DNA from: a phage
Sequence record: PZ534511.1
Reading direction: 5' to 3' (one strand)
DNA: 64,000 nt
The translations under genes were made by a program, and so were the position numbers. Below the pieces are notes generated by a model, which made no database searches, was not told the DNA's origin, and worked only from the letters and a program-made list of their open reading frames with translations. Each line of letters starts with the position of its first letter. The first letter of the stretch is position 1. Positions 24,887 to 45,233 of the stretch are shown here, in pieces.

Positions 24887-26377
24887 TTAAATAGTTTGTT
24901 GGAAAGTTATATTACTTTCGTCGAGGTCAAACACCTCGGTCATGTTCGCAACAATATCGTTTGTAGTGTAAGCTTCATCAGAAGCTCCTACGGATTTAAC
25001 TTGAATTACCAGCCTATTAAATCTGCCTATTGACACAGCAGCAGATGCAGCACCTACCAATTGGATATTATACAACGTATCTGCAACATCCAGTCCGTTA
25101 ACAACCTGCAAAAGAGCCTCTATAATGGCATCTTTTTCGGTTGTAGAAAGCGCAGCACCGGAGTAGGTAATTCTTACATCTAGGCGGTAGGTGTTTGCCT
25201 TGGAGTAATAAATTCTTTCAGTTTGACCGTCAGATGTAGTGACATCGTAGAAAATATTACCATAAGTCCTGTTCGTACAGGCTATAGTTTGGTAAAGTGC
25301 TTGGCAAATGTCTTCCGTTGCACCACCAAACACAACCACTTGGAACTTGTAAGGGGGTATACCTTTAGCATCAGTTTTATCGGTGTTATTGGAGAACACT
25401 CTCACTTTCTCAACACCTTTCACCTCGCTTACAGCGCTAAGGATTGCAGGACGGGTAGCCTTAGATGTTAACTGTTTTGTGCTGGAAGCTCTTAAGCGAT
25501 ACTCTGAGTCTTTCTCAACATCCCTGCCCTCATTGAATCTTTCTCGGTTGGTAAGCTTGATAAATCCACTGGGAGTAGGTGACATTGTTGTCACGGTTTC
25601 TGCCTCTCTTGACAACTCACCCGCCTCGTTAGCGATAACATCCAGTGTGATAGTTCTTTCCCCTACAATCGGGGATACTCTGAAATCTACTCTACTATTA
25701 AGTCCAACTTGATCAAGATTCGAATTGTACCCTATCCACAACGTTCCTGTCAACATATCTATCTGAATCAAATCGTCGTTCAACAGGGTTGTATTATCGA
25801 CAATGAACTGCTTAATCTCTCCGTAAAAGCTTGGCAGATCAGAAGAGTCCAGAGACTTATCTGTTAAAACCAGACTTTTTGTTTTGATACTTCCATCTGT
25901 CTGGTTGGTAATTTGAAAGTTGTATTTACCAATCCTTAGGTCTGGGGCATTTATTCTGTGAGCAATAAGATTCCCTGCTACTTGCACATCGTTGCTAAGA
26001 ACAAAGTTGCCACTGTCCAGCGTATAAGTTTTGGAATCATAAATCATATTGTACGGCACAGTTGTGTTGATTGTCAACTGGCAGGTACCTGATGATTTAG
26101 AACGGCCTCTTCGGTAAATACCTTGTCTTCCAAGAAGCTCATCTAGGTAAATACCTTCTGCCCCATACAGCGTCTGTGATGCGTATACAGATGCTGCCAT
26201 AAGAATAAGTTGATACTCTCGCTCGTTGAAGATAGTGGTCAGCTTATCTGCAACGGAGTTACTCTGTACGTTGAAGTTTTCGCCAAAAGCACGGATCAGG
26301 CTTTGCTTAGTTTCAACGATTAGGTCATTTAGGGTTGGTATAACGAAACCAGCCTCTGTCAATCCATACTTAGCCAC
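24887..26377 (-). CDS. Baseplate J-like protein
   Basis: N-terminal pattern resembles Baseplate_J family (YGAEGIYLDELLGRQGIYRRG); GTG start after GGAGGAG. Confidence 0.5.
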   Translation of the reverse strand: MAKYGLTEAGFVIPTLNDLIVETKQSLIRAFGENFNVQSNSVADKLTTIFNEREYQLILMAASVYASQTLYGAEGIYLDELLGRQGIYRRGRSKSSGTCQLTINTTVPYNMIYDSKTYTLDSGNFVLSNDVQVAGNLIAHRINAPDLRIGKYNFQITNQTDGSIKTKSLVLTDKSLDSSDLPSFYGEIKQFIVDNTTLLNDDLIQIDMLTGTLWIGYNSNLDQVGLNSRVDFRVSPIVGERTITLDVIANEAGELSREAETVTTMSPTPSGFIKLTNRERFNEGRDVEKDSEYRLRASSTKQLTSKATRPAILSAVSEVKGVEKVRVFSNNTDKTDAKGIPPYKFQVVVFGGATEDICQALYQTIACTNRTYGNIFYDVTTSDGQTERIYYSKANTYRLDVRITYSGAALSTTEKDAIIEALLQVVNGLDVADTLYNIQLVGAASAAVSIGRFNRLVIQVKSVGASDEAYTTNDIVANMTEVFDLDESNITFQQTI

Positions 26378-29400: not shown

Positions 29401-30322
29401 ATGAGGCTTCCGGGTAGATCTTGACCTCACCACAGACACAATCCTCACTCAGTGTCATTGTTGCCGGGCCATAGTATGCACCAACCAGCAAACCATACTT
29501 ACCAGCTACATAGCTGAGATCTGCGCCACAAGCTTTCAGCATTTCTGCCATAATACTTGCTGGGGCCTCATCCATATCGAACTCGCCATTAATTGTGTAA
29601 CGACGCTCGCTGGTTCCGTCTGCGTTTCTTACAGCCTCGTCGCATATGTTGGCAGCCTCCTTGAAGGACTCCCAGTTGATGGTTTCGTCAGGACATTTAA
29701 GGTACGTTCTTAAATAGTCCAGAATCACCAAGGCAGCGTTATTGGTATACACCTCTTTACTAGTGCGAGGATCATAGCATTTTTTACCAACCTTGACGAG
29801 TGTGACGTTTGGCAACCCAAAAGGAAACTTGTTAGGGTCAAACCTAAAGCTGACCCGTAGCCAACTGATCCCTCTACCTATCATGTCCGGTGACCACGAT
29901 GGGCAGTGTGTGCCCATGAAAGGATCAGAGGTTTTTCTATCGTTATGTAGCTCCCACGATACCAAATCCCCATACGAAGAAATAGGATTACCGTCGATAA
30001 GTATATCTTCTATACCTTCCAGAGGGTGATTGGCAAGAACAATAGCACAATGAAGGGTTCTGTCCCTGTCCTGCTCCAAAAACGCAAGCAATCCAGATGT
30101 ACGTGTCTTCCCATACACTACAGAGCAAGGTGCAGCAGAAGATCTGAGAAGCTTTTGTCTATCTTGCTGACTTCTGTAAGATTTGTTTCCCTCGAAAATC
30201 TTATCCAGAGTTCTGGTGGTAACAGTGTTCAGGCTGTCAGCCAGAGCTGCCTTGGATGCGTTCCAGTCATAACTTGAAGATCTTGCAGAAGCAACGATGT
30301 TATCAATCATTGCAATTGGCAT
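26483..30322 (-). CDS. Long tail fibre protein with FN3-like region and repeated coiled-coil shaft (1279 aa)
   Basis: Tandem ~50-aa repeats (NKATTDLLNQKT variants); C-terminal G-x-F-x-G repeats. Confidence 0.55.
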   Translation of the reverse strand: MPIAMIDNIVASARSSSYDWNASKAALADSLNTVTTRTLDKIFEGNKSYRSQQDRQKLLRSSAAPCSVVYGKTRTSGLLAFLEQDRDRTLHCAIVLANHPLEGIEDILIDGNPISSYGDLVSWELHNDRKTSDPFMGTHCPSWSPDMIGRGISWLRVSFRFDPNKFPFGLPNVTLVKVGKKCYDPRTSKEVYTNNAALVILDYLRTYLKCPDETINWESFKEAANICDEAVRNADGTSERRYTINGEFDMDEAPASIMAEMLKACGADLSYVAGKYGLLVGAYYGPATMTLSEDCVCGEVKIYPEASFDKRSNTITGRFTSPTKGYSETDFPSVFVPEWIEKDGERKIIDIDYRFVTSPYQAQRVSAIFLRRARAGRIIEVTCNMRGFKFKPGRYVTMNLPSIGIVGQEMRVLEWEFTKKGGVKVKLRQDAKEWNDATGQLPDSGNVDIPISPSGVAQPQNFRYSVLQAGEVTHGVLAWDNVGTYAQNIVQVRKNGEIVWTAQTVEQFVRVEGLTKGSYTATVVATSYKGGVSPEAYCEFNIQAPEAPVSVEVKQGYFAITLIPHSRDLASVSTQYDFWTSGMTRLPDTSDATVTSNATRMGVGSTWTSEGLQNDKVYYWYIRTTNAFGSSQFVECAARCYTSIEDLMPQIDAEFKKTETYKELMSTLDSSIEEVENRVTELNRYMDGRVDEAFQQLGDRIGAVVTETTQKFEDVNGNITALDRKLVAAQNKFTNDLNTESGRLASLIETTNKATTDLLNKKTEALDEKLVAAKGELVEQIGGVESGYLAGDKTLDGKINTQRTELDASILSTNQATVDLLNRTSETLDQKISQTNATVSKNYTTLDGKITTAKTDLNTLIANTNKATTDLLNQKTSALSEQITSARGEISTNKQAIDALDGKLTSTKTALDATISDTNKATVDLINGTASAIRQELAVAKQEIINDVGDVSELRAAVATTSKAVTDLEGKVNAQWGTKIQVDSAGNKYVAGIQLGMEGSGGQVQSYFMVSANNFAVYNPGNGTATLAFAIKNNQAFLKDAFIENGTISSAKIAQEISSNNYDGNGYHKYGWYINKNGHAQFMDVWVKGNINASSGNFTGAVNATSGTFRGDVYANNGSFRGTIDATGGTFRGRVEASVIRANQFEGAIVAHKTYGDCPPVYNSQQQVCRWRWRYVDNVQGQGKNVTFFFKLNGTLGGSQLNVWIAGHQLLAGKKYGNDNDGMCAVGITGLGEQTIDIIVEIYTRWSTSAITGVTISCPTVIVSRSNSSFQGPWNESHD

Positions 30323-30759
30323 TAATACCTCCAGACATCAACAACGATAGAATCTTTCATGTCGAACATAAAGACCCCTTTATCACCTTTAGCCCAAATC
30401 TGGTTGTTCCAGAACACACCAGCGGTGAGCCCGTTCAGACCTTCGAAAATGACAATATCTCCACGCTGAGCCTGTTTAGGAGTATCCAGCCGAGTCATAA
30501 AGAGATCAAAAATAGTAGGCAGGTGTGTGGTTTTGAAACGAAGCATGCACCATCTTTTGCTTTCCAACTCTGTTTTATACGTTCCTTCAAAGTTAGAAAG
30601 AAAATCTGTTCCGTATTGGGCATCAACACACTTAGCCGCAAAGGTGCAACAATCGTGGAATCCCCATTCAAAAGGTATGGTGGCCTCTTCGTCAAACACT
30701 TTCCACAATCTTTCTTGCCAATCCACTAAACGAGGATGTGTGCTCATTAAACCTCCCAA
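30322..30759 (-). CDS. Tail-associated protein, possible NlpC/P60-like fold
   Basis: EWGFHDCCTF Cys/His cluster; position before long fibre gene; weak. Confidence 0.3.
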   Translation of the reverse strand: MGGLMSTHPRLVDWQERLWKVFDEEATIPFEWGFHDCCTFAAKCVDAQYGTDFLSNFEGTYKTELESKRWCMLRFKTTHLPTIFDLFMTRLDTPKQAQRGDIVIFEGLNGLTAGVFWNNQIWAKGDKGVFMFDMKDSIVVDVWRY

Positions 30760-31313
30760 ATGATCGGGCGGCTCGCCACCTGATCCACATATTTAAAAAA
30801 TCTGTCGTTATCGTTTCTTGAGCTGTGGCTTTCCTCCGTGTACCGATAAGGAAAACCTCTTAACCAGCTGTTGAAGATGGAGGAGATGGATATGGACAAA
30901 GCACTATTCTCGCCTGTCTGAATAGCCATATCTGTTATAAGGCCGTCAAACAAGCCATTAGTTGTAACAGGCAGACCATTCTCCATAGCGGTAATGTACA
31001 ACGTGGCACGACAACCAGAATACTCCGTCTTCAGCAGATCACCCACATACTTAGGATCAAACCCGTTCAATGTCGCTACCACAGATCCGAAGTTGGTGGC
31101 ATCTTTCTCAGACACAGCAGTTAACGTTGCTGATCCACCTATCCCTATAAAATGTTGCCCCTCAATTACTACAACACCAGTGCCTGAGCACACCCTGACA
31201 GTTCCTGTCGGTAGCTCCAGCTTTGCAGCAATTAAGATCTCAACACCATCAAGCTCCAGCTTTTCAAGAAATAAATTATCTAATGGCGCTCTGATCATCT
31301 TAGAAATCCTCAA
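30747..31313 (-). CDS. Tail/baseplate structural protein
   Basis: Track ORF overlapping neighbours by 13-14 nt. Confidence 0.4.
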   Translation of the reverse strand: MRISKMIRAPLDNLFLEKLELDGVEILIAAKLELPTGTVRVCSGTGVVVIEGQHFIGIGGSATLTAVSEKDATNFGSVVATLNGFDPKYVGDLLKTEYSGCRATLYITAMENGLPVTTNGLFDGLITDMAIQTGENSALSISISSIFNSWLRGFPYRYTEESHSSRNDNDRFFKYVDQVASRPIIWEV

Positions 31314-31890
31314 AGAAGTTGATAACTATATTATCACCTTTTTGCATAGCATCGACTTTTTGCTTAATTTTATAAATATCTCTGATATGAAACCTACCCT
31401 TCGGAGATTGAGTTATTATCTTCATGGTGTCCCCTGCGGCAATAGGCTTTCTAAGTCTTGGAGATATGCCTATAACAGCAGACCCAACACCATCACTACG
31501 CACTGGAGCTGTTACCACTTTCAATTCATCATTGACAGATATTTTATCCCCAGCTCTAGCTATGTCTCTGTTTGGCTCCCATCCGACCGTCTTCAAAAAA
31601 TCGTCGTTACCAGTAGGCCCAAGGGCGATTGGCTCATTAGTTGTTACTGAGTGACCGTAAGTTTTAATAAGAAAGATGTTTCCATCTTTATACACCTGAT
31701 CAACAAAGCTCTTAAGCTCTAGCAACTGTGACTCGCTGATATTGGAGACCGTCAAAGTGCCTTTCCAGTTAGGTGTGGCATAGGTTACTTTTTGCGTTTT
31801 ACCTGTAAATGGACTTTTAAACGTAACAATATCTGCCAGCAGCTCCAATCTAATATCTGGAAGATATCTAGGCCTTTCCCATAAAAACAT
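31300..31890 (-). CDS. Tail/baseplate structural protein
   Basis: Track ORF; first gene after terminator. Confidence 0.4.
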   Translation of the reverse strand: MFLWERPRYLPDIRLELLADIVTFKSPFTGKTQKVTYATPNWKGTLTVSNISESQLLELKSFVDQVYKDGNIFLIKTYGHSVTTNEPIALGPTGNDDFLKTVGWEPNRDIARAGDKISVNDELKVVTAPVRSDGVGSAVIGISPRLRKPIAAGDTMKIITQSPKGRFHIRDIYKIKQKVDAMQKGDNIVINFFEDF

Positions 31891-31950: not shown

Positions 31951-31982
31951 TACAAACAAAAAGCCCCCGCCGAAGCGAGGGC
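31951..31982 (-). terminator. Rho-independent terminator
   Basis: Hairpin GCCCCCGCcgaaGCGAGGGC (one mismatch) then TTTTTGTTTG. Confidence 0.5.
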
Positions 31983-31989
31983 AAAACAG

Positions 31990-34900
31990 TTACTTCAGTT
32001 TCTCTTGCAACCCAGTAACAACCTCTGTCAATTTTTTAACCTGCTCCTCAAGGGCGGTTATTTTATCATCTTGTTCTCTGCAAACCTGAACAAGCAATCC
32101 TGTTACAGCCGCATAGTCAACATTATAGAATCTTTCCTCGGTCATCAGAGGAATACCATCTTGAGTAGGACCAGGAACCTCTTTCCTTTTCACGAAAGAA
32201 CCAACCGCTTCAGGCAATGCTTCCATAACCTCTTGAGCAATTACCCCCGCGTGAGGCATACCATTCTCTTTTAGAGTGTAGGTATAGCCTTTCATCTTAC
32301 GGATAGCTTCCAACGCGTTAGGAATAACCTCTATGTTATCCTTCAGGTCACGGTCAGAGCTCTGGCTGACAGCGGTGCACTCTACTACGCCGTTGACAGC
32401 AAAGTACCTTGACTTGGCCTCATCTGTCTTAGCACCACAATGCCATACCCAACTGGCAGATGTAGCGTTGTCGTTTATCTGAAACTCAAGCACGTTCTTC
32501 CTGTCTGCGCCATTACCCCAGTAGTACATTCTGCCTGTATTAGAAGGCATGTTGGAAGTGTTGGTAACATCGGTCCCACCACCTGTATGTATCATGAACT
32601 CTGGGTCAAGATTGGAACCTGCGGTTTTAAGAGTAATTCCCTTACCACCAAGCTGCTGCCAAGGTCCCCATGTGAAAACACTACCTATTGTTGTTCCATA
32701 ACGCAGGAATTTTTCCCCAAGATATGATATATACTCCTGTACGCAACTCTCTGGAACATTGGCGTAGTTCCTGTACACGATAAGCGTACCTGCCCGGGAG
32801 CATGGGTAGTTTCTATCAGGTGTGGCTTGAGCATTGGCCTCCTGATGATAAAAACCTTCCCTATCCCCTTTGTAGTCGTTAAGGTCATTAATCCCCAGAC
32901 CTTGCCCTCTGTGTTGTATGACCTTGTTCCACGCTCTATGGTTACCACCCTCGATAGATCTGGTGTATAACTGATCAAGGCGTCCAGCCATTTGGAAAGC
33001 ATAGTTTCCAGAGAACGCCACAGACAGTCCACCAACAACCATCGAGCCTTCTGGTCCGTTAACATTACCCGCCATTATTTTTGACGGGTTATTAGACCCA
33101 AACTGGTTGTTCCAGTCTCCACCAGTATGACATACAAAACCACCAGGGGCCGAGAAAGTACCGTCTTTGTTGAAATTGTAGAATCTGTGAGCTGTGCCCA
33201 CAACATCGCGAACAATAACTTGACCAGCTTCTGGGGTAGATCTGAACTCTGCCTGACCTTTGAGGCCAGCACCATTACCGCATTTAGAGGTAAACGTACC
33301 GTTAGTTAGATCCTCTGTTCCATCTGATGCACACTGGAATCCTGCATTAGAGAATAACGCCTTTCTAGGGCTGCCATAGCACAAATAGTCAATACCGTCA
33401 GCCCATAGTTCGACTTTAGGCATGTTCATTTTGCTCATCACCGCATAGCGTTCAGCAGTGCCTATATAGTGCCACTGTGTGCCGCCGCCAGTGTAGAACC
33501 CAGAGGTACCTTTGAAGTCAACAATAGGTCTGGTGTTGGTATTGTTATCTCCAAGAACAGCAAGATTCAAATCTGCTGACTGGAGAGGCGCAACAAACTT
33601 AACACCGTCCTGATTGTCTGTTACAGCTCCGACCTGGTAATCTTGCTCTCTGGTAAACACTTCTACAACATTTCTACTTGCGTATACGCTGACAGGGAAA
33701 GCACGAGCCTCTACATAGAAAGCAACATACTCTTGTTTACCCCTTGTTGGAGCAACCATCCCAAGAAGTGCTTTTTCATTCTGGTAGAAATTTACTACCC
33801 CGTAGAAAGAGTCTCCTCTGTCTGTCCAGCCCCCAGTTCTGTAATGGCACTGCAGAGTAGCGCAGTTCATAGGGTCACTGCCGGATGACGATCTGGTAAC
33901 TATGGTAATATCAGTACCAGTTGCTGGAGCATAGTACGGATCTGTTCTAACGATGATTGGGTAGTATTTCCCATCTTCCATCCCTGCAGTTCTTGGCAGT
34001 GTTAAGAAATCTTTGACACCCGCAGCTATAGGAACTTTGAACAGATTCTGAGCATCTGCCAGGGTTGTAGCCCCAGTGCCACCTGCGGCGTGAGATAAAG
34101 GTTCCCACTTGGCCTTCCGGTTGTTATAAACACCCCATTCCAGAGTGCCGTTACCGGACTCATCCATCCCACCATCCCAGACGACCATCTTGGCGGCTTT
34201 CTTGGACCCCCAGAAGCCTCTTTCTGCTCCTGAACTACGAATCCACTCTCCAAGTCCCCAGTTTGTCAGCTGACCAGTAAGATCCCCAACCTGCATGTAT
34301 TTAGGGCAGTCTAACACGCCGTCTTCGCGTAAACCTAAATATCTATGAGTTTCAGATCCTTTTGCACCTTTGTGCAGGTGGATTGTCAACCAAGCCTTAT
34401 TGTCGTTTCTTACCTCAGAATAGATCCTATATCCATGCTCAAGGACACCGTCAGTATTATATTTATCTCCATGGAGAATACCTGAGGCCGATTTAACATC
34501 TCCCGAGTATTGAGCTAAGTAAAGGTGCCCGAAGGCTGGCGAGTTGTTTTTACCAAGGCCAATATGAGATCTGAAGGTATCATCGTTACGAGGTCTGACC
34601 ATCGGCTGCCATGCAGTCCACTGATTTGTGTTGGCCTGATAGGTTCTCAAATACCAAACATCTACGTTAGAGAATGGATAGTATTCCTGACGACAACCTG
34701 TACCGCCGTTAGCATTGTTCTGCCAAACAATCAAGTGACCAGCACCAGAACCTGCAGGGTAACCATTTGCCTCAGTTGCATTAGCAGTCATCGGCTGGTA
34801 GTATATACCATCCTGATTACCAGTCAAATTATTGATATTGAAATTTGCATCAAGCGCAGCACGCTGCTTATAGAAAGCACCGATATTGATACGGACTCCA

Positions 34901-35790
34901 GCGGCATCTCTAGCCCCTGTGCCGCCTTGCTCTATAGCAAGAGGTTGCCACGAAGCTGTTTGTTGGTTCCACATACCCCAACGGCCTGTTGCATCAAGCT
35001 GCAAGTACCCTGCCGTATTTAAATCATCTCCAGCACGGATAACTGTTCTTGTTGGGTTATTTGTCTCTAGGCGTTTAAATTCATCACGAAGTGCTATTCT
35101 TTTTGTTGTTGCTACACCGTTGGTTACTGCAATGGTGTACATAGCTCCGGTGGTAGCGCCACGGAAAATACCATCAACAGTTGTAGTATCACGACGAGAT
35201 ACCACACCGTTCAGAAATTTTTCACCAGCTGCTACAGAAGGGTAGTTGGTAGTTCTTCCCTCTTCAATAACTGCAGGGCCAACAAAGTTATCAAGGTGAA
35301 TAACATCGCCTACAGTGTGCACTGTACCAAAATCTACACGCTGTGCAAGTGCTTTAGCATCGTTAGCTGTCTGAACAGTAACATCCATTACATCCTGGAC
35401 AGACTGCCCTTCGGCTGTCATGATCATAGATGCGCCAATGGTAGATTCCAGCTCCTCCCTTAGGGACGGGTCAGTATATACCATCCATGCAGCGTCAGTA
35501 ATCCCACCATCAGCGTACGGTGAAGACAGTGCAGGAACAGTGTGTGGAAATTCGCCTTTCCAACGCAGGTAGAGGTCTTCCTCTTCGAAGTAGGCAAAAT
35601 CCATTGGGCCGTTTAACTTACCACCTTCCTTAAAGGAGATTACATGAGAAACAGTCCCATCCACATGGACAACATCGCCAATTTTTACACGACGAGTCAG
35701 GTCTGGTTGTTGAACAACCAGGTAATCATCCTCTGTCACTGCGGTAGTGGCAGGAAGAGATTCAATTCTGACAACTTTAATATCAGCCAT
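31990..35790 (-). CDS. Tail fibre/tailspike with C-terminal intramolecular chaperone (peptidase S74-like) domain
   Basis: C-terminal SSDRDLKDNIEV motif and trailing coiled coil; N-terminal anchor domain shared with 38425..39093. Confidence 0.6.
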   Translation of the reverse strand: MADIKVVRIESLPATTAVTEDDYLVVQQPDLTRRVKIGDVVHVDGTVSHVISFKEGGKLNGPMDFAYFEEEDLYLRWKGEFPHTVPALSSPYADGGITDAAWMVYTDPSLREELESTIGASMIMTAEGQSVQDVMDVTVQTANDAKALAQRVDFGTVHTVGDVIHLDNFVGPAVIEEGRTTNYPSVAAGEKFLNGVVSRRDTTTVDGIFRGATTGAMYTIAVTNGVATTKRIALRDEFKRLETNNPTRTVIRAGDDLNTAGYLQLDATGRWGMWNQQTASWQPLAIEQGGTGARDAAGVRINIGAFYKQRAALDANFNINNLTGNQDGIYYQPMTANATEANGYPAGSGAGHLIVWQNNANGGTGCRQEYYPFSNVDVWYLRTYQANTNQWTAWQPMVRPRNDDTFRSHIGLGKNNSPAFGHLYLAQYSGDVKSASGILHGDKYNTDGVLEHGYRIYSEVRNDNKAWLTIHLHKGAKGSETHRYLGLREDGVLDCPKYMQVGDLTGQLTNWGLGEWIRSSGAERGFWGSKKAAKMVVWDGGMDESGNGTLEWGVYNNRKAKWEPLSHAAGGTGATTLADAQNLFKVPIAAGVKDFLTLPRTAGMEDGKYYPIIVRTDPYYAPATGTDITIVTRSSSGSDPMNCATLQCHYRTGGWTDRGDSFYGVVNFYQNEKALLGMVAPTRGKQEYVAFYVEARAFPVSVYASRNVVEVFTREQDYQVGAVTDNQDGVKFVAPLQSADLNLAVLGDNNTNTRPIVDFKGTSGFYTGGGTQWHYIGTAERYAVMSKMNMPKVELWADGIDYLCYGSPRKALFSNAGFQCASDGTEDLTNGTFTSKCGNGAGLKGQAEFRSTPEAGQVIVRDVVGTAHRFYNFNKDGTFSAPGGFVCHTGGDWNNQFGSNNPSKIMAGNVNGPEGSMVVGGLSVAFSGNYAFQMAGRLDQLYTRSIEGGNHRAWNKVIQHRGQGLGINDLNDYKGDREGFYHQEANAQATPDRNYPCSRAGTLIVYRNYANVPESCVQEYISYLGEKFLRYGTTIGSVFTWGPWQQLGGKGITLKTAGSNLDPEFMIHTGGGTDVTNTSNMPSNTGRMYYWGNGADRKNVLEFQINDNATSASWVWHCGAKTDEAKSRYFAVNGVVECTAVSQSSDRDLKDNIEVIPNALEAIRKMKGYTYTLKENGMPHAGVIAQEVMEALPEAVGSFVKRKEVPGPTQDGIPLMTEERFYNVDYAAVTGLLVQVCREQDDKITALEEQVKKLTEVVTGLQEKLK

Positions 35791-35794
35791 TCTT

Positions 35795-35821
35795 TCTCCT
35801 GAAAGGGGGCAAACAGCCCCC
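35795..35821 (-). terminator. Terminator/attenuator-like hairpin
   Basis: GGGGGC-aaaca-GCCCCC with short T-run overlapping next gene RBS. Confidence 0.35.
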
Positions 35822-35825
35822 TATG

Positions 35826-38423
35826 TTAAAGGTACAATCCACGGTATTGAGCATAAAGACCCAGACCGCGAAGGATTTCGCCAGAGTGATAGCCAACCGG
35901 ATCAGAAACTGCCCAGCAGCCGTTTAAAATATTATCCCCATTAATGAAGTGGTGCTTTTGCAGTAGCTTCACACAGGCTTCTACAACAATATCTATTTGA
36001 GGTATTGTCTCTGAATACCCGCACAGACCTAGCCAGCAGCAACCTGCAAGCCATTCACCTACCACCCACATCCTGTCCCCTCTGTCTTGATAAGAGTATC
36101 CCCCAGAGGTGTTAAAGTCTGTAGGCAGATTTCCTGAATGAGATGACTGGAATCTGTTGAGGAACCATGCCCATTTCTGGCAGAACAGGAACAGTCTTTC
36201 ATCAACAGGTTCTTTATGTTTCTTGAGCTCATATATTGTGCGGCACGCAGCAACAAAAGATCTTGACTGGAGCTTAGAGTTATCTACCATCTCCCACCAA
36301 CCAGTCAACCCTTCATTGCCTCTCTGCCATACATAACGTGAGGCAACTGGACCCTCTGTCCTAAATGTATTATTATACCAGACTTGAGCGTCATACAGAA
36401 AGCCTATTGTATTTGACAATCTATGGCGATCTATGTTTTCTGCACCCATGCAGTAGACTGCTGGGTATTGCATGCCAGGGTAGGGCCAATTTGGCTTTTC
36501 CTCTAAGAGATAGTTTTCCTTATCTATCACCTTTCCGGCAGGGAACACACCCGGTGTGTGCCTGTATGCACCTTGCTTGTAGTTTCTGACATAGCAATCG
36601 CCAACCTTAGCGGTTGATTCTGTCTTGCTTGCCATCCACACGCTAAACCAGATTAGATAAGCATCCCTATCTGCAATATAGAATTGCGGCAGCGTGTTGA
36701 CGCAATACAGATCAAACAAGCCATTACCTATCTGCCTGTCGCTTAGACTGAAATCTACAGAGGTTAGTCCCTTAGGATTAGCAAAGAAAGGTTTAATCTC
36801 TTCTTCGGTGTGATGAGGTTGTGTCGGATCTAGTTTGAAATCTCCTAGAGTAAGAGTTTCTGTTATCCATTGTCCATTGGTGGCATATAGATCAGCATAC
36901 CATAACCACCTGTCTTTGTCAAGAAATTTGACCCTTACCATCTCATCATCTGATCGATAAGTTACTGAGTTTAAAGAAATCTCTCTTCCAAAATTGAAAG
37001 TTACTTTACCTCTTGCTATATTACAACGGGTGAAGTTGTCAGAGTGGTTGTAAATGTCGGTATCATACTGCATACTAACACTAGCACCACCGCTTACGGC
37101 AATGTTTTCCTCTTTAGGTAAGAGATACGGATTACCGTCTTTACCAACCACCTCTACGAAATCGGTAACCTTGGCAACTATTTCTGTTACCTCTGCCCTT
37201 CCAAAAGGAACCCCTATCCTGTACTGTTTTTTGTTATTGTTGCCATCATTAAGGATGAAATGTGGCTGGAACAGAACCCCCTCTCCTCCGAAATTCATAA
37301 CAATTTCAGCATCTCTGCCTATTTTGTATGTAGTCCCTTTTTGGATTATTTCGCAAGGCTGGCGTGCGTTCATTCTAAAATTGATATACCCGTCACTGTC
37401 CCTGCTCATGACAGGAACTGTTCCTGCAACAAGACAAGTACCATCTGTAAACGGTGCCTTAATCAACGTGGTCTTTCTAAACAATTTGTCGTAGGCGTTT
37501 ATATCACTGAAATTAAGCAGTTTGTTGTAAGACTGTTCAAACGCGGTGTAATACTTTTCCTCACCTGTCAAGGTGTAGAGTTGATAACAAGCGTCACACC
37601 ACATTTCTTCCCCGTCCAACTCTGGGGCCTGATTATCTGCAACCACGTTTATAGGATTTACAATTACAGGGGATCCTGCAGGTATCACCGATCCACCCTG
37701 CTCCTGAGGTAATCTTACACAATAGGTCACCTTGTGGCTGCCTGTAACACCCTTATCTTGTAATTGGATTGTGCCGAACTCTACAGACGTATGACCACTG
37801 TCGGCTATGCTACCGTTAGCCCAATAGCGGTTACCATCCCATGCTATGTACCACTCAACCCACCAACTTAATCCGGATGTTGTCCAATCTGGGTTAGCAT
37901 CTGTGCCACCGTAAACATCAGAGTCTACAGTGTTTCTTCCTAACACACCGTTATACGCTTGGAATGCCTTGTCCAGGTATTCCCCCCATGTCGGAGATCC
38001 AGCTGGGATTTTTCCTCTACCGTTGGTAAAAGACACCACCACATCTTTAAACCCACCGTGTGATGGAACCCCATCTGTGGATAGAGGGTAGTGGGACAAT
38101 CTTTGCATTTTACTTTCTACGGCATATGCACCCAGAAGATGACTATTGTAAGCTTCCCAAGCATCTTTTGCCCTATCCAGATAGAAATCGCTTTTCGATG
38201 CCCTGTATGCTTCAATGTATCCCAGAATCAACACAGCTTGGGACTCATGCATTGCCCAATCGTTATTTATCTTATTACCTGCCCACCCTGCAGCTATAAG
38301 ACCATCAGGGTTTACTAGCTTATTTTGTGTAGGTGTGTTGGTAATACCTGTGTTGTTATCGAGGCACTTCCTGTGCCCCTCAATCATCTGAAATACGTTA
38401 TCAATGTTGTGTTGAATACGCAT
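35826..38423 (-). CDS. Tail-associated protein (865 aa), possible glycan-degrading domain
   Basis: Large ORF in baseplate/fibre region; aromatic-rich; enzymatic function is speculation. Confidence 0.4.
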   Translation of the reverse strand: MRIQHNIDNVFQMIEGHRKCLDNNTGITNTPTQNKLVNPDGLIAAGWAGNKINNDWAMHESQAVLILGYIEAYRASKSDFYLDRAKDAWEAYNSHLLGAYAVESKMQRLSHYPLSTDGVPSHGGFKDVVVSFTNGRGKIPAGSPTWGEYLDKAFQAYNGVLGRNTVDSDVYGGTDANPDWTTSGLSWWVEWYIAWDGNRYWANGSIADSGHTSVEFGTIQLQDKGVTGSHKVTYCVRLPQEQGGSVIPAGSPVIVNPINVVADNQAPELDGEEMWCDACYQLYTLTGEEKYYTAFEQSYNKLLNFSDINAYDKLFRKTTLIKAPFTDGTCLVAGTVPVMSRDSDGYINFRMNARQPCEIIQKGTTYKIGRDAEIVMNFGGEGVLFQPHFILNDGNNNKKQYRIGVPFGRAEVTEIVAKVTDFVEVVGKDGNPYLLPKEENIAVSGGASVSMQYDTDIYNHSDNFTRCNIARGKVTFNFGREISLNSVTYRSDDEMVRVKFLDKDRWLWYADLYATNGQWITETLTLGDFKLDPTQPHHTEEEIKPFFANPKGLTSVDFSLSDRQIGNGLFDLYCVNTLPQFYIADRDAYLIWFSVWMASKTESTAKVGDCYVRNYKQGAYRHTPGVFPAGKVIDKENYLLEEKPNWPYPGMQYPAVYCMGAENIDRHRLSNTIGFLYDAQVWYNNTFRTEGPVASRYVWQRGNEGLTGWWEMVDNSKLQSRSFVAACRTIYELKKHKEPVDERLFLFCQKWAWFLNRFQSSHSGNLPTDFNTSGGYSYQDRGDRMWVVGEWLAGCCWLGLCGYSETIPQIDIVVEACVKLLQKHHFINGDNILNGCWAVSDPVGYHSGEILRGLGLYAQYRGLYL

Positions 38424-38424
38424 C

Positions 38425-39093
38425 TTAGATAGCTCCTGCGATAATCAGTGCCCCGTACCAAGTTAACCCGTTGTCGTAGGTTTCCAACTTGAAAATATCT
38501 GTTGCACCAGCTGTAAATGTTAGGATAGGATCTCTTCCGTAGGACCATTTAACATTACCAGGCCAATAGACTTTGTTGCCGCCAGAGGTCTGAGTAATGC
38601 ATACGGTTATAGTCCTCGCCACCCCTTCAAGACCTTCTGTTTGATTTTCAAAAGAGATTGTGGTATTTGAAGTTAGTCGAACCTTAAAGGTATCCGCAAC
38701 TTCAAGATCCATATCAAGCTGACCACCGATAGATCCGTAATCAACTATTCTGCCAGAAGAAGTTGCAGCAAGCTCACCAAAAACAGACCAGGCATTTGCA
38801 GACACACCCCCAGCACCCTCTACAGTGGAGTCTGGGAGGATTATTTTAGGATAATCCCCGTTCCACGTGTAGTAGCGCTTAGTTTCTGGATCATAAGCAA
38901 AGTCCTTCTTGCTCTTAAGATAACCACCCTCTGTGAAATAGACTATCTTAGTGATGCTAAGATCGTTGACAACATCGTCAATCTTAGCCTTTCTTGTCCC
39001 ATCAGTCTGGTTGACAACCAAGAAGTCATCACTCAGGACTGTTTCTGCATCTTCAAGATCTGGAATTGGTATTGTAGGATAAGCTACAGCCAT
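38425..39093 (-). CDS. Short fibre/adaptor protein with tailspike-type N-terminal anchor domain
   Basis: N-terminus (DFLVVNQTDGTRKAKIDDVV..FTEGGYLKSKKDFAY) parallels N-terminus of 1266-aa fibre. Confidence 0.45.
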   Translation of the reverse strand: MAVAYPTIPIPDLEDAETVLSDDFLVVNQTDGTRKAKIDDVVNDLSITKIVYFTEGGYLKSKKDFAYDPETKRYYTWNGDYPKIILPDSTVEGAGGVSANAWSVFGELAATSSGRIVDYGSIGGQLDMDLEVADTFKVRLTSNTTISFENQTEGLEGVARTITVCITQTSGGNKVYWPGNVKWSYGRDPILTFTAGATDIFKLETYDNGLTWYGALIIAGAI

Positions 39094-39102
39094 GATTTCT
39101 CC

Positions 39103-39819
39103 TTAGTTAACATCAATAGCACGACCAGACTGGTTGGCAATAGCCTCATCATTGGAGGTAGCAATAACACCAGAGTATTCGCGCTCATCTGGAGCAAGCG
39201 TCCAGGTATTGCGGTTAATGGTTTGTTCTGCCTCAGTCATCAGCAGATCTTTATCCTGAGTCAACAGAGAGCCTACAGGGATCGGGTTTTCCATCTCAGG
39301 ACCAGCATACTGGTTCCACCATGTGGCATCTCCGGTTCTAGGCAATCTGAAGTTGATCAGATAGTACAGTTTATTAGCCCACTTAATCCAACCCTCATCA
39401 TCACAGAGGGAGGTTGTCCCAGAATCAGGCTGTGGGTAGGTGAACTGATCAAGACCTACAAAAGCCAGCCTTACAATCTCGTTCTCTTTGGTAACAACCT
39501 CAAAGAACGCTTGGTATGTTCTCGATCTTCTATCCATGGTGGATTGGAAGTTTATGATGTTTAGCACATCCGGCTCTTGTCTTGCCACTTCCATAATCTT
39601 GTTATCAAGAACAGTCTTCATGACCTTCTTGCTGAGAAAGTCCATATAAGGGAAGCCAAACAGCTCGTCAAAGTACCAGCTCCCCTTCCACGTATTAAAT
39701 CTCATCCACAAGCGCTGGCGCAGACTTACCTGGTTTGAATCTATCAACTCAAGACCTTTGTCTATCGCCAAATCGCCTGTCTGTGGGTCCATCAATATAT
39801 CACTATAAAGCGTAGCCAT
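39103..39819 (-). CDS. Baseplate wedge protein with gp25/GPW-like N-terminal domain
   Basis: DPQTGDLAIDKG...WMRFNTWKGSWYFDELFGFP pattern. Confidence 0.5.
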   Translation of the reverse strand: MATLYSDILMDPQTGDLAIDKGLELIDSNQVSLRQRLWMRFNTWKGSWYFDELFGFPYMDFLSKKVMKTVLDNKIMEVARQEPDVLNIINFQSTMDRRSRTYQAFFEVVTKENEIVRLAFVGLDQFTYPQPDSGTTSLCDDEGWIKWANKLYYLINFRLPRTGDATWWNQYAGPEMENPIPVGSLLTQDKDLLMTEAEQTINRNTWTLAPDEREYSGVIATSNDEAIANQSGRAIDVN

Positions 39820-42896: not shown

Positions 42897-45233
42897 TTAC
42901 CAAAGGTCGGTAGACATGAAGTTGATATCTTTATTGTTCTCCCACTCAAGTTTTGCATCAAATATTTTGTTAAACTCACCCTCATCTATTGAAATCGTGA
43001 TTTTCCCATCACTGATCTCTAAAGGTAGCATTTCCATAGTTCTTAATTGAGAAGCAAAACCAGGGCCACCCGGCAACGGAAGAGTCCCGCCCGGTAAGGT
43101 GTCCAAAGGATTAACAAACCCGTTACCTCCCGATATGATATCTTTGCGAATCATATCGCTGATAGTATCCAGCTGCTGATTTCTTTCACTTAGTGGGTTG
43201 TAACGGTCATTAAATAATTCCCCGGCGCTTAGTATTGTACCGATAATGCCCAGCTTACCGAGCAGACCAACTTTGCCACCAGGTGTCTTGAGGCCACCTC
43301 CACCTTTTCCTGCCGGAGCTCCACCACCAGATCCTTCTGTAGTAGCGGCACCCGCTGCTCCAGCTGCACCCCTTAGAGAGTTAAGGAATTTAAAGGTTTT
43401 TACAAGCATAGATGCCATGACAAAACCTTTTGTTAGGGCGTTGACGACCAGCATGATGGCAGCAGCAAACCCTGCCCATTTAGCATAGCTAAAGGTGTCA
43501 TGAAGCTCTTCAGAATATTCCTTCGTCTTGGCTGTTATGAACCCCCATTTAATCCCCCATTCAAGGAAAAACATGCGGATCTTGACTATAGTGTTGTTTA
43601 GTTCACCAACTACCCAGTTAAGGCCTCTCACAAACCCGCTAACAAAATCACCAGAGGCATCCCACACAAATTGCAGAGTCTCACCCGTGCGGATCAGTGT
43701 ATAATAGAACTCTGTTAGTTCGTCAGACCAACGGGTGAACAGTTTCTGACGAGTCAGTTCGATGAAGGTTTTCAGTCTGTTTTCTGCCAGCACGTTAGAC
43801 TTCTGCATTCTTTCATAACCAGCTGCAGATGCCTCGTTCATGTACTTAGCCACATACTTCATGATCTTGGCTGTTTTAACCTCACCTTTCTTCATCATGT
43901 CCATGAACTGATCCATGGAGAGTTCAGAAAGACCAAAAGCCTCTTTGGTGGCCTTGATAAAAGGTTCGTATGCACCAGGCAATGCTTCAGCAAGTTGTTG
44001 CTTCAGTTCTTCGGACATTACTTGCCCTTTACCGAGCATTTGCTGGATTGCCATAATACCGCGCTGGTATTTTACCTCATCGGCACCATAAGCAGCAGCA
44101 TACTGGGAGTATGCAGAAAACAGCTCATGCACTTCCTGATTTGTCATCTGGTTTTTGGCGTTTACCGACATCTGGGCGTAACCTTGAAGACCAGATTTGA
44201 GATCAAAACCAAGACGCATAGCCTCTTGCTGGACAAACGCAACCTCACTGTTAGCTTTGTTTGGATCTCCAGTAACAGCAGTAAGAGCAGCACTTGCCCC
44301 CTCCATCATGTGACCGGATCTATTAACTGCAGCAAATCCAGAAAAAGCTGTATACGCAGCTGTTGCATTAATAACAGATCTACGTAAGTCTCTCATGGCA
44401 TCGCCTAGTGTAAGCGTTTGGCTGGTGGCGCTTTTAAACCCAGACTGCAGCGCTGACAGGTGGGCGTTAAAGGTTGACTTCTTCATCTCCCCGCGAGCAA
44501 ACCTGGACTCTAACTCTGAGTATCCTGGCAAGCTTCCACGGAATCCGGCCCCATACTTGGCAGAAAGTCTTATCGCGGAGTTGTAGAGGTGGGTTCTCCT
44601 TGCCTCACGATCCGACATAAGCCTATTATCCATACCAGCTTTACTGTCTCTTCTTAGCTGTCTATGATAACGATTCATGGCAGCGGTCTGGGCTTTCACA
44701 AGATTAGGATCTGAAGCCACTCCACCCATGTTCGGGTTGCCTGGAATATATCTGAAAGACTTGGCGTTAGCAAGAACTCTTGCCTTAGGTGCCTTATAAC
44801 CCCCATAGGATACTGGTGCAGATTTGGCAGCTTTTTTAGCCTCTTTAGCTTGCTGCTGGTAGAACTTACGCATCCTAGCCATCTCTGGGTTTTTGGCGGT
44901 AAGATTGCCTACAGCTTGCCTACGTCTTGCATTCTCCCTACGCTCTATTGCAGCCTTTACTGCAGCCTCTTTCTTAGCCTGAGCAACGCTCTCCCTGTGC
45001 AGTTTAGCATTTGCTTGAGATTGTTGTCTGGCAACACGTTGCATTGTCTGCTGAGTTTTAACCGCCACTGCCTGCCATCTACTCATGGGGTTGGCTGAGT
45101 TAAAATCCTCGCCCAGTTTCCTGAACTCCCTCCCAATACTGCGAATTTTCTCTACAGCTTTTTTGTAGGAGGAGTTCTCTATCTCAAAGCCAATCTTGTT
45201 GACTGTTGTGGCAACTATTTTGTTTGTAGCCAT
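42897..45233 (-). CDS. Tail tape measure protein
   Basis: 778 aa, follows chaperone pair; helical Ala/Lys/Gln-rich N-terminus; Gly-rich GAAGAAGAATTEGSGGG and hydrophobic segments. Confidence 0.65.
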   Translation of the reverse strand: MATNKIVATTVNKIGFEIENSSYKKAVEKIRSIGREFRKLGEDFNSANPMSRWQAVAVKTQQTMQRVARQQSQANAKLHRESVAQAKKEAAVKAAIERRENARRRQAVGNLTAKNPEMARMRKFYQQQAKEAKKAAKSAPVSYGGYKAPKARVLANAKSFRYIPGNPNMGGVASDPNLVKAQTAAMNRYHRQLRRDSKAGMDNRLMSDREARRTHLYNSAIRLSAKYGAGFRGSLPGYSELESRFARGEMKKSTFNAHLSALQSGFKSATSQTLTLGDAMRDLRRSVINATAAYTAFSGFAAVNRSGHMMEGASAALTAVTGDPNKANSEVAFVQQEAMRLGFDLKSGLQGYAQMSVNAKNQMTNQEVHELFSAYSQYAAAYGADEVKYQRGIMAIQQMLGKGQVMSEELKQQLAEALPGAYEPFIKATKEAFGLSELSMDQFMDMMKKGEVKTAKIMKYVAKYMNEASAAGYERMQKSNVLAENRLKTFIELTRQKLFTRWSDELTEFYYTLIRTGETLQFVWDASGDFVSGFVRGLNWVVGELNNTIVKIRMFFLEWGIKWGFITAKTKEYSEELHDTFSYAKWAGFAAAIMLVVNALTKGFVMASMLVKTFKFLNSLRGAAGAAGAATTEGSGGGAPAGKGGGGLKTPGGKVGLLGKLGIIGTILSAGELFNDRYNPLSERNQQLDTISDMIRKDIISGGNGFVNPLDTLPGGTLPLPGGPGFASQLRTMEMLPLEISDGKITISIDEGEFNKIFDAKLEWENNKDINFMSTDLW

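What the first reader, a model, noticed from the sequence alone, without database searches (positions are those of the whole stretch)
35500..39093. Shared N-terminal anchor domain on a 222-aa protein and the 1266-aa fibre
The N-termini of 38425-39093 (DFLVVNQTDGTRKAKIDDVV..FTEGGYLKSKKDFAY) and 31990-35790 (DYLVVQQPDLTRRVKIGDVV..FKEGGKLNGPMDFAY) are clearly homologous while the rest differs completely. The same docking module is used for two different distal domains, as in multi-tailspike phages, suggesting a branched adsorption apparatus.
Basis: partly seen in the sequence, partly recalled or inferred. Interest (0 to 1): 0.4.

Follow-up and report, generated by a model that had tools for sequence, protein, structure and literature searches.

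The report
Shared tail-fibre anchor in rV5-like phage
Two tail proteins of an rV5-like E. coli phage start with the same attachment module, and the small one is probably an adaptor that holds the sugar-cutting enzyme encoded by the next gene, which is a new example of a known way phages build branched host-recognition gear.

Summary
The 222-aa protein (38425-39093, -) and the 1266-aa fibre (31990-35790, -) share residues ~7-105 (38% identity, BLASTP E=3e-18; z=30 against shuffles). Nothing else in them is similar, and no other ORF in the window carries the module.

The window is a Vequintavirus (rV5-like myophage, 95-97% nt identity). The proteins are rV5 gp43 and gp41, both detected in virions by published mass spectrometry.

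The module has two separable parts:
- a ~45-50-aa N-terminal peptide with no solved relative;
- a PF18668 tailspike N-terminal domain, as in CBA120 TSP1/3/4 and G7C.

The same pairing of a small protein and a large fibre/spike recurs in Seunavirus and phi92-like phages; two metagenomic relatives carry the module on two or three large spikes. Felix-O1-like lineages show the pairing with different N-termini.

One refinement. The small protein's C-terminal domain sits immediately upstream of a homologue of the 865-aa protein (35826-38423), an (alpha/alpha)6 glycosidase-like fold. This holds in every phage record checked and in 3 of 5 randomly chosen metagenomic contigs. In a T7-like podophage this domain is fused to a T7 fibre N-terminal domain. 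So the 222-aa protein is most likely an adaptor.

This is a new member of a known kind (anchor/adaptor-branched receptor-binding complexes). Docking itself is inferred, not shown.

The parts
38425..39093 (-). 222-aa protein (rV5 gp43 / Bas58_0025 / phi92 gp140 counterpart): N-terminal anchor module plus C-terminal adaptor-like domain
   Evidence: ORF. phrog_7760 'tail fiber protein' E 8e-120. 100% identical in many Vequintavirus records. AF2 model pLDDT 84.
38950..39093 (-). anchor peptide of the 222-aa protein (aa 1-~48; consensus ...DLP...D.LVV.Q.D.TRK...)
   Evidence: Profile of 13-15 members. Low AF2 confidence as a monomer, pLDDT 52-69. No PDB sequence match. Present without the PF18668 domain in Bas60_0024.
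38779..38943 (-). PF18668 Tail_spike_N domain of the 222-aa protein (aa 51-105)
38428..38760 (-). C-terminal beta-rich domain ('C-dom', aa ~112-222, with an Asp-box-like YDNGLTW motif): proposed dock for the 865-aa protein
   Evidence: pLDDT ~95. 3413 HMMER hits, mostly at C-termini of small proteins or fibres. Always immediately upstream of an 865-aa homologue in the phage records checked.
35826..38423 (-). 865-aa virion protein (rV5 gp42 / phi92 gp141 counterpart), (alpha/alpha)6-barrel glycosidase-like, without an anchor module; start codon 1 nt after the 222-aa stop
31990..35790 (-). 1266-aa lateral tail fibre (rV5 gp41 / Bas58_0027)
   Evidence: ORF. phrog_6578, plus Peptidase_S74 at aa 1145-1196. 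Allelic variants keep aa 1-~330 and swap the rest.
35482..35790 (-). anchor peptide plus PF18668 domain of the 1266-aa fibre (aa 1-103)
   Evidence: Pfam PF18668 at aa 46-103, 39.2 bits. BLASTP to the 222-aa protein E=3e-18.
32203..32358 (-). Peptidase_S74 intramolecular chaperone domain at the fibre's C-terminus
   Evidence: Pfam PF13884 E 1.5e-16, 60.8 bits.
39103..39819 (-). sheath initiator (phi92 gp139 counterpart); in six lineages the gene just upstream of the first anchor-module gene
   Evidence: phrog_4233/phrog_120. Orthologues carry PF10934. 61-69% identical to Esp_43, L009, L010 and L011 proteins.
24887..26377 (-). Baseplate_J-like wedge protein (phi92 gp145 counterpart): candidate docking platform, by analogy only
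   Evidence: Pfam PF04865 E 4e-9. In phi92 fibres I and III attach to the C-terminal domain of gp145 (PMC13450770).
35805..35821 (-). 6-bp GC hairpin between the 865-aa and 1266-aa genes, ahead of the fibre's own AGGAG ribosome-binding site
   Evidence: Sequence read.

Best explanation
The window is the tail-fibre locus of an rV5-like myophage (Vequintavirus).

Residues 1-~105 of the 222-aa protein and of the 1266-aa fibre form a common virion-attachment module. It consists of a ~45-50-aa N-terminal anchor peptide followed by a PF18668 tailspike N-terminal domain. Each protein, presumably as a trimer, uses this module to plug into the periphery of the baseplate. The likely site is the gp145-like wedge protein, as for fibre I of phi92.

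The fibre carries its own long shaft, an exchangeable distal part and a self-cleaving S74 chaperone.

The 222-aa protein has no receptor-binding or enzymatic part. Its C-terminal ~110-aa beta domain serves as the dock for the product of the next, translationally coupled gene. That product is the 865-aa (alpha/alpha)6 glycosidase-like protein, which has no anchor of its own. One anchor type therefore mounts two branches: a fibre, and an adaptor-held enzyme.

Shown here:
- the homology, modularity and recurrence of the N-terminal module;
- the fold classes;
- the gene coupling.

Taken from the literature: virion presence, by mass spectrometry.

Inferred: trimer state, docking site, and adaptor-enzyme contact.
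For: 1. The homology is significant and restricted to the N-termini.

2. Both N-termini pass PF18668. Their closest solved relatives are the N-domains of CBA120 TSP1/3/4 and G7C 4qnl.

3. The module always starts at residue 1. It precedes unrelated distal parts: beta-helix, SASA, colanidase-like, and fibres of 617-1481 aa.

4. Within-genome sharing of the module recurs:
- EspYZU15 ORF42/ORF40, 48% identity;
- Bas60_0024/0027;
- L009 690/850 aa, 77% over the module;
- L010 518/938/1012 aa.
Lineages with a different baseplate show the same small-protein/large-protein pairing with different N-termini: L007 153/1493 aa at 52%, L008 244/502 aa at 32%.

5. The anchor peptide and the PF18668 domain are separable. 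Bas60_0024 has only the peptide; Bas60_0027 and L010_938 have an insert between them.

6. rV5 gp41, gp42 and gp43 are all in virions (PMC3606486). A fibre class with a C-terminal S74 domain, probably this fibre's Bas54 orthologue, was fitted into Bas54 baseplate maps (PMC12143355).

7. Adaptor role:
- C-dom hits and 865-aa homologues occur in 536 and 525 phage records with near-identical genus counts.
- The C-dom gene lies directly upstream of the 865-like gene in every phage record where both positions were compared, across several myophage groups and a T7-like podophage, and in one prophage.
- It is also directly upstream in 3 of 5 informative randomly chosen metagenomic contigs.
- The held stretches of L009 and L010 lack both genes.
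- Junctions are overlapping or 0-14 nt apart; here it is TAA-g-ATG.
- In the T7-like podophage Kaonashi the C-dom is fused to a T7 tail-fibre N-terminal domain (PF03906, 36.6 bits, cut-off 25.2) and is followed by a 930-aa homologue of the 865-aa protein.
- In prophage L018 the C-dom is fused to a copy of a resident 156-aa protein.

Against: - No binding or structural data exist for any step.
- The AF2 model of the anchor peptide is low confidence (pLDDT 52-69), and no solved structure contains it.
- No T4 gp10-like branching domain was detected by Pfam in the window, so the docking site is unknown.
- C-dom also occurs at the end of long fibres and as tandem copies. In L016 and L022 it is followed by RCC1-like or Laminin_G_3 genes rather than an 865-aa homologue. 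It could therefore be a generic tip or knob.
- No C-dom/865 fusion protein was found among 159 retrieved proteins.
- The 865-aa model is only moderate quality (pLDDT 64).
- Two or three different proteins with the same anchor need either several equivalent sites per wedge or competition for one site. Neither is resolved.
Confidence: 0.6

Rival explanations
1. The 222-aa protein is itself a very short receptor-binding spike. The shared N-module mounts it on the baseplate, and its C-terminal domain binds a host glycan. The 865-aa protein attaches by other means, and the adjacency is only conserved gene order.
For: - C-dom lies at the extreme C-terminus of many proteins annotated as tail fibres, including proteins over 1000 aa.
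- It carries an Asp-box-like motif, which is why BASEL calls the protein a 'sialidase domain protein'.
- The phi92 cryo-EM paper lists gp140 among putative tail fibres.
- L016 and L022 show C-dom without an 865-aa homologue downstream.
Against: - Adjacency and translational coupling with an 865-aa homologue persist across unrelated virion types: several myophage groups, a podophage and prophages.
- In the T7-like Kaonashi the only fibre-type gene is a 269-aa T7-N-domain+C-dom protein, and the 930-aa partner has no attachment domain of its own.
- C-dom and the 865-like gene are both absent from the held L009 and L010 stretches.
- There is no sialidase fold. Foldseek matches to sialidases cover 26 residues at E>4.
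Confidence: 0.25
2. The shared N-terminal region is not a docking element but a trimerisation or carbohydrate-binding 'head' domain that happens to be reused. Attachment would be mediated elsewhere.
For: Pfam names PF18668 a 'receptor binding N-terminal domain'. In CBA120 and G7C the equivalent domains lie after the true attachment region (my knowledge of those structures, not tested here).
Against: - The module includes ~45-50 residues upstream of PF18668 that are conserved on their own and can occur without PF18668 (Bas60_0024).
- It always begins at residue 1.
- In other lineages the small protein borrows a different resident N-terminus, including the T7 fibre N-terminal domain PF03906. From established knowledge, not tested here, that T7 domain attaches the fibre to the tail.
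- Neither protein has any other candidate attachment region.
Confidence: 0.1
3. The similarity is a relic of an old partial gene duplication with no present function, or a chance match.
For: Only 38% identity, and almost no DNA similarity.
Against: - z=30 against shuffles and E=3e-18.
- The pairing is conserved across genera at 35-55% identity, so both copies appear to be conserved by selection.
- Both copies pass a curated Pfam threshold.
Confidence: 0.02

Closest known systems
CBA120 (Kuttervirus) TSP1-4 and G7C gp63.1/gp66 anchor-branched tailspike complexes
   Same: - Several receptor-binding proteins per baseplate or tail.
- Conserved N-terminal attachment sequences reused on different distal enzymes (summarised in PMC6872550).
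   Different: - No T4 gp10-like branching domain was detected in this window by Pfam.
- The first ~50 residues are unrelated to CBA120/G7C N-termini and to anything in the PDB.
- One partner here is a 222-aa protein without a beta-helix.
- The host virion is an rV5/phi92-type myophage.
Adaptor or truncated-anchor two-gene systems (K1-5/K1E/SP6 gp37 adaptor; KP32virus group D and the JD001 group 'first RBP truncated' in Klebsiella phages)
   Same: A short, non-enzymatic protein carrying the virion anchor is encoded next to a large enzyme that lacks an anchor and is thought to bind it (PMC6872550). This is the arrangement 222 aa -> 865 aa, and exactly so in podophage Kaonashi.
   Different: - The cargo is an (alpha/alpha)6 barrel, not a trimeric beta-helix.
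- The same cassette is spread over myo- and podophages and prophages.
phi92 'Swiss army knife' adsorption apparatus (gp140-gp143, gp147, gp150, gp151)
   Same: - Orthologous locus and gene order.
- The phi92-like Bas60_0024 (gp140 position) shares the anchor peptide and C-dom.
- Bas60_0025 (gp141 position) is 35% identical to the 865-aa protein.
- Bas60_0027 (gp143 position) carries the anchor plus PF18668.
- Three fibre sets per wedge are seen by cryo-EM.
   Different: - phi92-like gp140 lacks the PF18668 domain.
- The distal parts of the large fibre differ (endosialidase in phi92, a long S74-terminated fibre here).
- The 2026 phi92 structure leaves fibre II unassigned and does not mention gp141 or gp142, and treats gp140 only as an uncharacterised putative fibre.

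Membership tests
Pfam PF18668 Tail_spike_N (TSP1/Gp66 N-terminal domain) | Profile match above the curated gathering score | tested here: met
   222-aa protein: 41 bits. 1266-aa protein: 39.2 bits. Cut-off 25. Also met in 7 of 7 other carriers of the module.
Anchor-branched RBP complex (CBA120/G7C type) | Conserved N-terminal attachment sequence shared by two or more RBPs of one phage | tested here: met
   E=3e-18 between the two N-termini. The same sharing is seen in EspYZU15, Bas60, L009 and L010.
Anchor-branched RBP complex (CBA120/G7C type) | T4 gp10-like domain in a scaffold RBP that provides the docking sites | tested here: inconclusive
   [not shown]
Anchor-branched RBP complex (CBA120/G7C type) | All partners physically present on the virion and in contact | not testable with these tools
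   Presence is supported by published rV5 virion MS for gp41, gp42 and gp43 (PMC3606486). Contacts are unknown.
Adaptor + anchorless enzyme two-gene RBP system (K1-5 gp37 / KP32 group D type) | Short protein with a virion-attachment N-domain and no enzymatic or long-fibre part | tested here: met
   222 aa = anchor + PF18668 + 110-aa beta domain, with no enzyme family hit in Pfam, NCBIfam or PDB. The Kaonashi homologue carries PF03906, the T7 fibre N-domain.
Adaptor + anchorless enzyme two-gene RBP system (K1-5 gp37 / KP32 group D type) | Adjacent large enzyme-like protein that lacks the anchor | tested here: met
   [not shown]
Adaptor + anchorless enzyme two-gene RBP system (K1-5 gp37 / KP32 group D type) | Direct binding of the enzyme to the adaptor | not testable with these tools
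   Indirect evidence only: co-occurrence and adjacency in every phage record where both positions were compared and in 3 of 5 informative random contigs.
Sialidase / BNR proteins (BASEL annotation 'sialidase domain protein' for the 222-aa protein) | Six-bladed beta-propeller catalytic domain with repeated Asp-boxes | tested here: not met
   No Pfam sialidase or BNR hit. Foldseek matches to sialidases cover 26 residues, a single Asp-box-like hairpin, at E>4. The domain is only ~110 aa.
Peptidase_S74 (intramolecular chaperone) tail fibres | C-terminal S74 domain | tested here: met
   PF13884 at aa 1145-1196 of the 1266-aa fibre, 60.8 bits vs cut-off 22. Self-cleavage was not tested.
(alpha/alpha)6-barrel glycoside hydrolases (GH8/48/76/88/105-like) for the 865-aa protein | (alpha/alpha)6 toroid fold; catalytic acid/base residues | tested here: inconclusive
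   [not shown]

The most novel reading that the evidence does not exclude
The 222-aa protein may represent a widespread, undescribed family of portable adaptors. In this reading its ~110-aa C-terminal domain is the cognate dock for a separately encoded cargo. The cargo is most often the 865-aa-type (alpha/alpha)6 glycosidase, and sometimes lectin-like proteins. The N-terminus is copied from whatever attachment domain the resident virion already uses: the tailspike anchor in rV5 and phi92 relatives, the T7 gp17 N-domain in Autographiviridae, a resident 156-aa protein in a prophage. If so, gp140+gp141 would be a candidate for unassigned fibre density in phi92/rV5 baseplates, and the cassette would be a plug-in unit for moving a depolymerase between unrelated phage morphotypes.
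Probability: 0.45. Interest if true: 0.55.

Novelty: new member of a known kind. Interest (0 to 1): 0.4.

Why it matters
rV5-like and phi92-like phages are among the broadest-host-range coliphages and are candidates for therapy. Which genes build which of their fibres is still open. The BASEL paper calls it 'far from clear', and the 2026 phi92 cryo-EM study could not assign fibre II.

Recognising that gp43 and gp41 share one anchor, and that gp43 probably tethers gp42, gives a concrete wiring diagram. It can be tested with existing maps (EMD-51869 and the phi92 maps) and existing transposon libraries.

It also marks the boundaries for engineering: roughly residue 105 for the anchor module, and residue ~330 for the constant proximal fibre. 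At these points distal specificity modules could be swapped.

Tried and rejected
- The word-indexed homologue search gave only 4 to 6 close relatives for the 222-aa and 865-aa proteins. An alignment query added nothing.
- NCBIfam had no family for any of the four proteins tried.
- A profile of the 50-aa anchor found nothing credible in the PDB (best E 0.93).
- I first considered the 865-aa protein as the platform on which both anchor-bearing proteins dock. I rejected this for three reasons. The held stretches of L009 and L010 carry anchor-module tailspikes directly after the sheath initiator without any 865-aa homologue. Distant 865-aa homologues occur without the anchor motif. And in Kaonashi the partner of the 865-aa homologue is the C-dom, not the anchor.
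- The 'sialidase domain' annotation was rejected.
- I looked for C-dom/865 fusion proteins as Rosetta-stone evidence and found none among 159 retrieved proteins.
- The RBPseg supplement is not held, so I could not confirm which Bas54 gene is its RBP_11.
- Schwarzer et al. 2012 (phi92) was requested but is not held. Plattner et al. 2019 (CBA120) was not looked up. I therefore cannot exclude that the shared gp140/gp143 N-terminus was already noted there.
- The HIDEN-SEQ preprint does not mention bas54_0025, so the essentiality of the adaptor is unknown.
Full report
**Identity of the window.** The 9-kb stretch around the finding is 95-97% identical at DNA level to more than 100 Escherichia phages of the genus Vequintavirus (rV5, FV3, BASEL Bas58 HeinrichReichert and others).

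On the minus strand the gene order is:
- tape measure (42897-45233);
- tube initiator, plug, hub, central spike;
- sheath initiator (39103-39819);
- the 222-aa protein (38425-39093);
- an 865-aa protein (35826-38423);
- the 1266-aa fibre (31990-35790);
- a lambda-like tail-tip module, wedge proteins and further fibres.

The three central genes are rV5 ORF43, ORF42 and ORF41, and Bas58/Bas54 genes 0025, 0026 and 0027.

**The observation.**
- BLASTP aligns residues 8-105 of the small protein with 7-105 of the fibre (38% identity, E=3e-18). Nothing else in the two proteins is similar.
- A shuffle test gives z=30 for the N-termini and no signal for the remainders.
- Among all six-frame ORFs of the window, only these two carry the module.
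- DNA similarity is almost gone, so the duplication is old.

**What the shared module is.** Both proteins pass the curated threshold of Pfam PF18668, the N-terminal domain of CBA120 TSP1 and G7C Gp66, at residues ~46-105.

Sequence searches of the PDB hit that domain in several proteins: CBA120 TSP1, TSP3 and TSP4, G7C 4qnl, Shigella phage B2 Gp48, and other tailspikes.

The first ~45-50 residues form a separate conserved element, with consensus MAD..PTV.ISDLP.A......D.LV.DQ.D.TRK:
- It is modelled with low confidence in the monomer.
- It has no relative in the PDB, even with a 15-sequence profile.
- It can occur without PF18668 (Bas60_0024) or separated from it by an insert (Bas60_0027, L010_938).

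**Is it an attachment module?** The evidence is comparative.

An exhaustive HMMER search shows the module at residue 1 of proteins of 518 to 1481 aa with unrelated distal parts. Allelic forms of the 1266-aa fibre keep residues 1-~330 and exchange the rest.

Sharing of the module within one genome recurs:
- Seunavirus EspYZU15: ORF42 (224 aa) and ORF40 (712 aa);
- phi92-like Bas60: 0024 (157 aa) and 0027 (624 aa);
- metagenomic relatives: L009 (690 and 850 aa) and L010 (518, 938 and 1012 aa).

In Felix-O1-like loci the small protein again shares its N-terminus with a neighbouring large protein, but the sequence is different. In L007 the 153-aa and 1493-aa proteins are 52% identical over 50 aa. 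In L008 and Erwinia Kolesnikvirus the 244-aa and 502-aa proteins are 32% identical over 150 aa.

N-termini that track the genome rather than the distal domain are what one expects of parts that must fit a lineage-specific socket.

Published data add two points. Virion mass spectrometry finds gp41, gp42 and gp43 in rV5 particles (PMC3606486). Low-resolution cryo-EM of Bas54 places a fibre class with a C-terminal S74 domain at the baseplate wedge; this is probably the 1266-aa orthologue, but I could not confirm the mapping (PMC12143355).

The socket itself is unknown:
- Pfam detects no T4 gp10-like domain in the window.
[quoted passage not shown] Its counterpart here is 24887-26377. This assignment is by analogy only.

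**The 222-aa protein is more likely an adaptor than a second receptor-binding tip.** Its C-terminal ~110 residues ('C-dom') form a confidently modelled beta domain (pLDDT ~95) with one Asp-box-like hairpin. That hairpin explains the 'sialidase domain' annotation, but there is no sialidase fold.

The case for an adaptor role has five parts.

1. Co-occurrence. tblastn finds C-dom in 536 phage records and the 865-aa protein in 525, with almost the same genus counts.

2. Adjacency. In every record where both positions were compared, the C-dom gene is immediately upstream of the 865-like gene on the same strand. This covers Vequintavirus, Phapecoctavirus, phi92-like phages, Seunavirus, Vibrio 157-kb phages, Loughboroughvirus ZCSE2, Kolesnikvirus, the podophage Kaonashi, two prophage loci (L005, L018) and metagenomic contigs.

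3. Random sample. Five randomly chosen C-dom proteins had informative contigs. Three are followed by an 865-type gene (L018, L020, L021). The other two are followed by RCC1-like or Laminin_G_3 genes. The held stretches of L009 and L010 lack both C-dom and the 865-type gene.

4. Coupling. The junctions overlap or are 0-14 nt apart. In the window the sequence is TAA-g-ATG, with the Shine-Dalgarno sequence inside the upstream gene. By contrast, a GC hairpin and a separate ribosome-binding site precede the fibre gene.

5. Borrowed N-termini. This is the most telling case. In the T7-like Serratia phage Kaonashi the annotated tail fibre is a 269-aa protein made of the T7 fibre N-terminal domain (PF03906, above threshold) plus C-dom. 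It is followed by a 930-aa homologue of the 865-aa protein. In prophage L018 the C-dom is fused to a copy of a neighbouring 156-aa protein.

So C-dom proteins take their N-terminus from a resident structural protein and appear to present a separately encoded cargo.

This agrees with three other observations:
- a sub-threshold GH76 hit in the Kaonashi homologue;
- the hydrolase prediction for the homologue in phage S144 (PMC7432712);
- BASEL's note of glycosidase domains.

Catalytic residues were not examined.

**Function in infection.** A 2025 transposon study reports that bas54_0026 (865 aa) and bas54_0027 (the fibre) tolerate disruption on E. coli K-12. It also reports that some lateral fibre genes become conditionally essential on clinical isolates (10.1101/2025.11.20.689424). 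Both branches are therefore accessory host-range devices rather than structural necessities. The study does not mention bas54_0025.

**Comparison with what is known.**
- Reuse of an N-terminal anchor on different receptor-binding proteins is established for T7/K1F, K1-5/SP6, G7C and CBA120, and has been modelled for many Klebsiella phages (PMC6872550).
- So is the use of short adaptor or 'truncated first RBP' proteins.
- The branched, multi-fibre nature of phi92 and rV5 relatives is also established (PMC8594841, PMC13450770).
- I did not find, in the papers I could read, the specific statement that rV5 gp43 and gp41 (phi92 gp140 and gp143) share an anchor. Nor did I find a proposal that gp43/gp140 tethers gp42/gp141.
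- The rV5 paper notes only that the gp43 N-terminus resembles the P22 tailspike N-terminus.
- BASEL says the gene-to-fibre assignment is unclear.
- The 2026 phi92 structure leaves fibre II unassigned and calls gp140 uncharacterised.
- I could not read Schwarzer 2012, and Plattner 2019 was not looked up, so prior mention there cannot be excluded.

**Verdict.**
It needs one correction, because the small protein is probably an adaptor for the enzyme encoded between the two genes.
- The docking partners remain inferred.
- This is a new member of a known kind, of moderate interest.
- Its main value is a testable wiring scheme for a phage group whose fibre architecture is still unresolved.

Noticed in passing
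window 26483-31890 (-): A lambda/siphovirus-like tail-tip module sits inside the baseplate cluster of this contractile-tailed phage. It comprises a Dit-like 196-aa protein, a 188-aa protein, a 145-aa protein annotated 'cell wall hydrolase' in Bas58, and a 1279-aa J-like protein with Phage_Tail_Tip and Ig_J domains. The Bas54 orthologues 0028 and 0031 are reported dispensable on K-12.
   Followed up: partly
[not shown]
   Followed up: partly
L022 284-3237; L016 1730-4745: Some proteins ending in the C-dom are followed not by an 865-type gene but by a Laminin_G_3 protein (L022) or an RCC1-like protein (L016). L022 has two such C-dom genes in a row, and L016 has two C-dom copies in one protein. 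The domain may serve several kinds of cargo.
   Followed up: no
L009 5718-9686; L003 21326-21631 (Bas60_0028): A different, CBA120-TSP-like N-terminus (MN.MFTQPTGP..KQ.NKQAIAR.FGVKQ.EVVYF) heads a third tailspike in L009. It survives as a 101-aa remnant gene in phi92-like Bas60 (75% identity). A second anchor class therefore coexists in this phage group.
   Followed up: no
GenBank MG065676, MG065655, MG065690, MG065652: Records named 'Campylobacter phage' A116, C2, A135 and C11 are 98-100% identical to this E. coli Vequintavirus in the fibre genes. They are probably mislabelled or contaminant assemblies.
   Followed up: no
window 35805-35821 (-) and 31963-31982 (-): A 6-bp GC hairpin lies between the 865-aa gene and the fibre gene. 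A strong terminator-like hairpin with a T-run follows the fibre gene. The 222-aa and 865-aa genes may therefore be expressed as a coupled pair, distinct from the fibre.
   Followed up: no
window 22117-24189 (-): This 690-aa protein has the N4 gp65-type non-contractile tail sheath domains (PF23845 E 4e-80, PF23844) plus a sub-threshold Calx-beta hit (26.5 bits, cut-off 27). It is the lateral fibre that BASEL linked to ECA recognition.
   Followed up: no
window 11295-16922 (-): A very large 1875-aa ORF with a Big_2 Ig-like domain near its C-terminus lies downstream of the short-tail-fibre genes. Its function was not examined.
   Followed up: no
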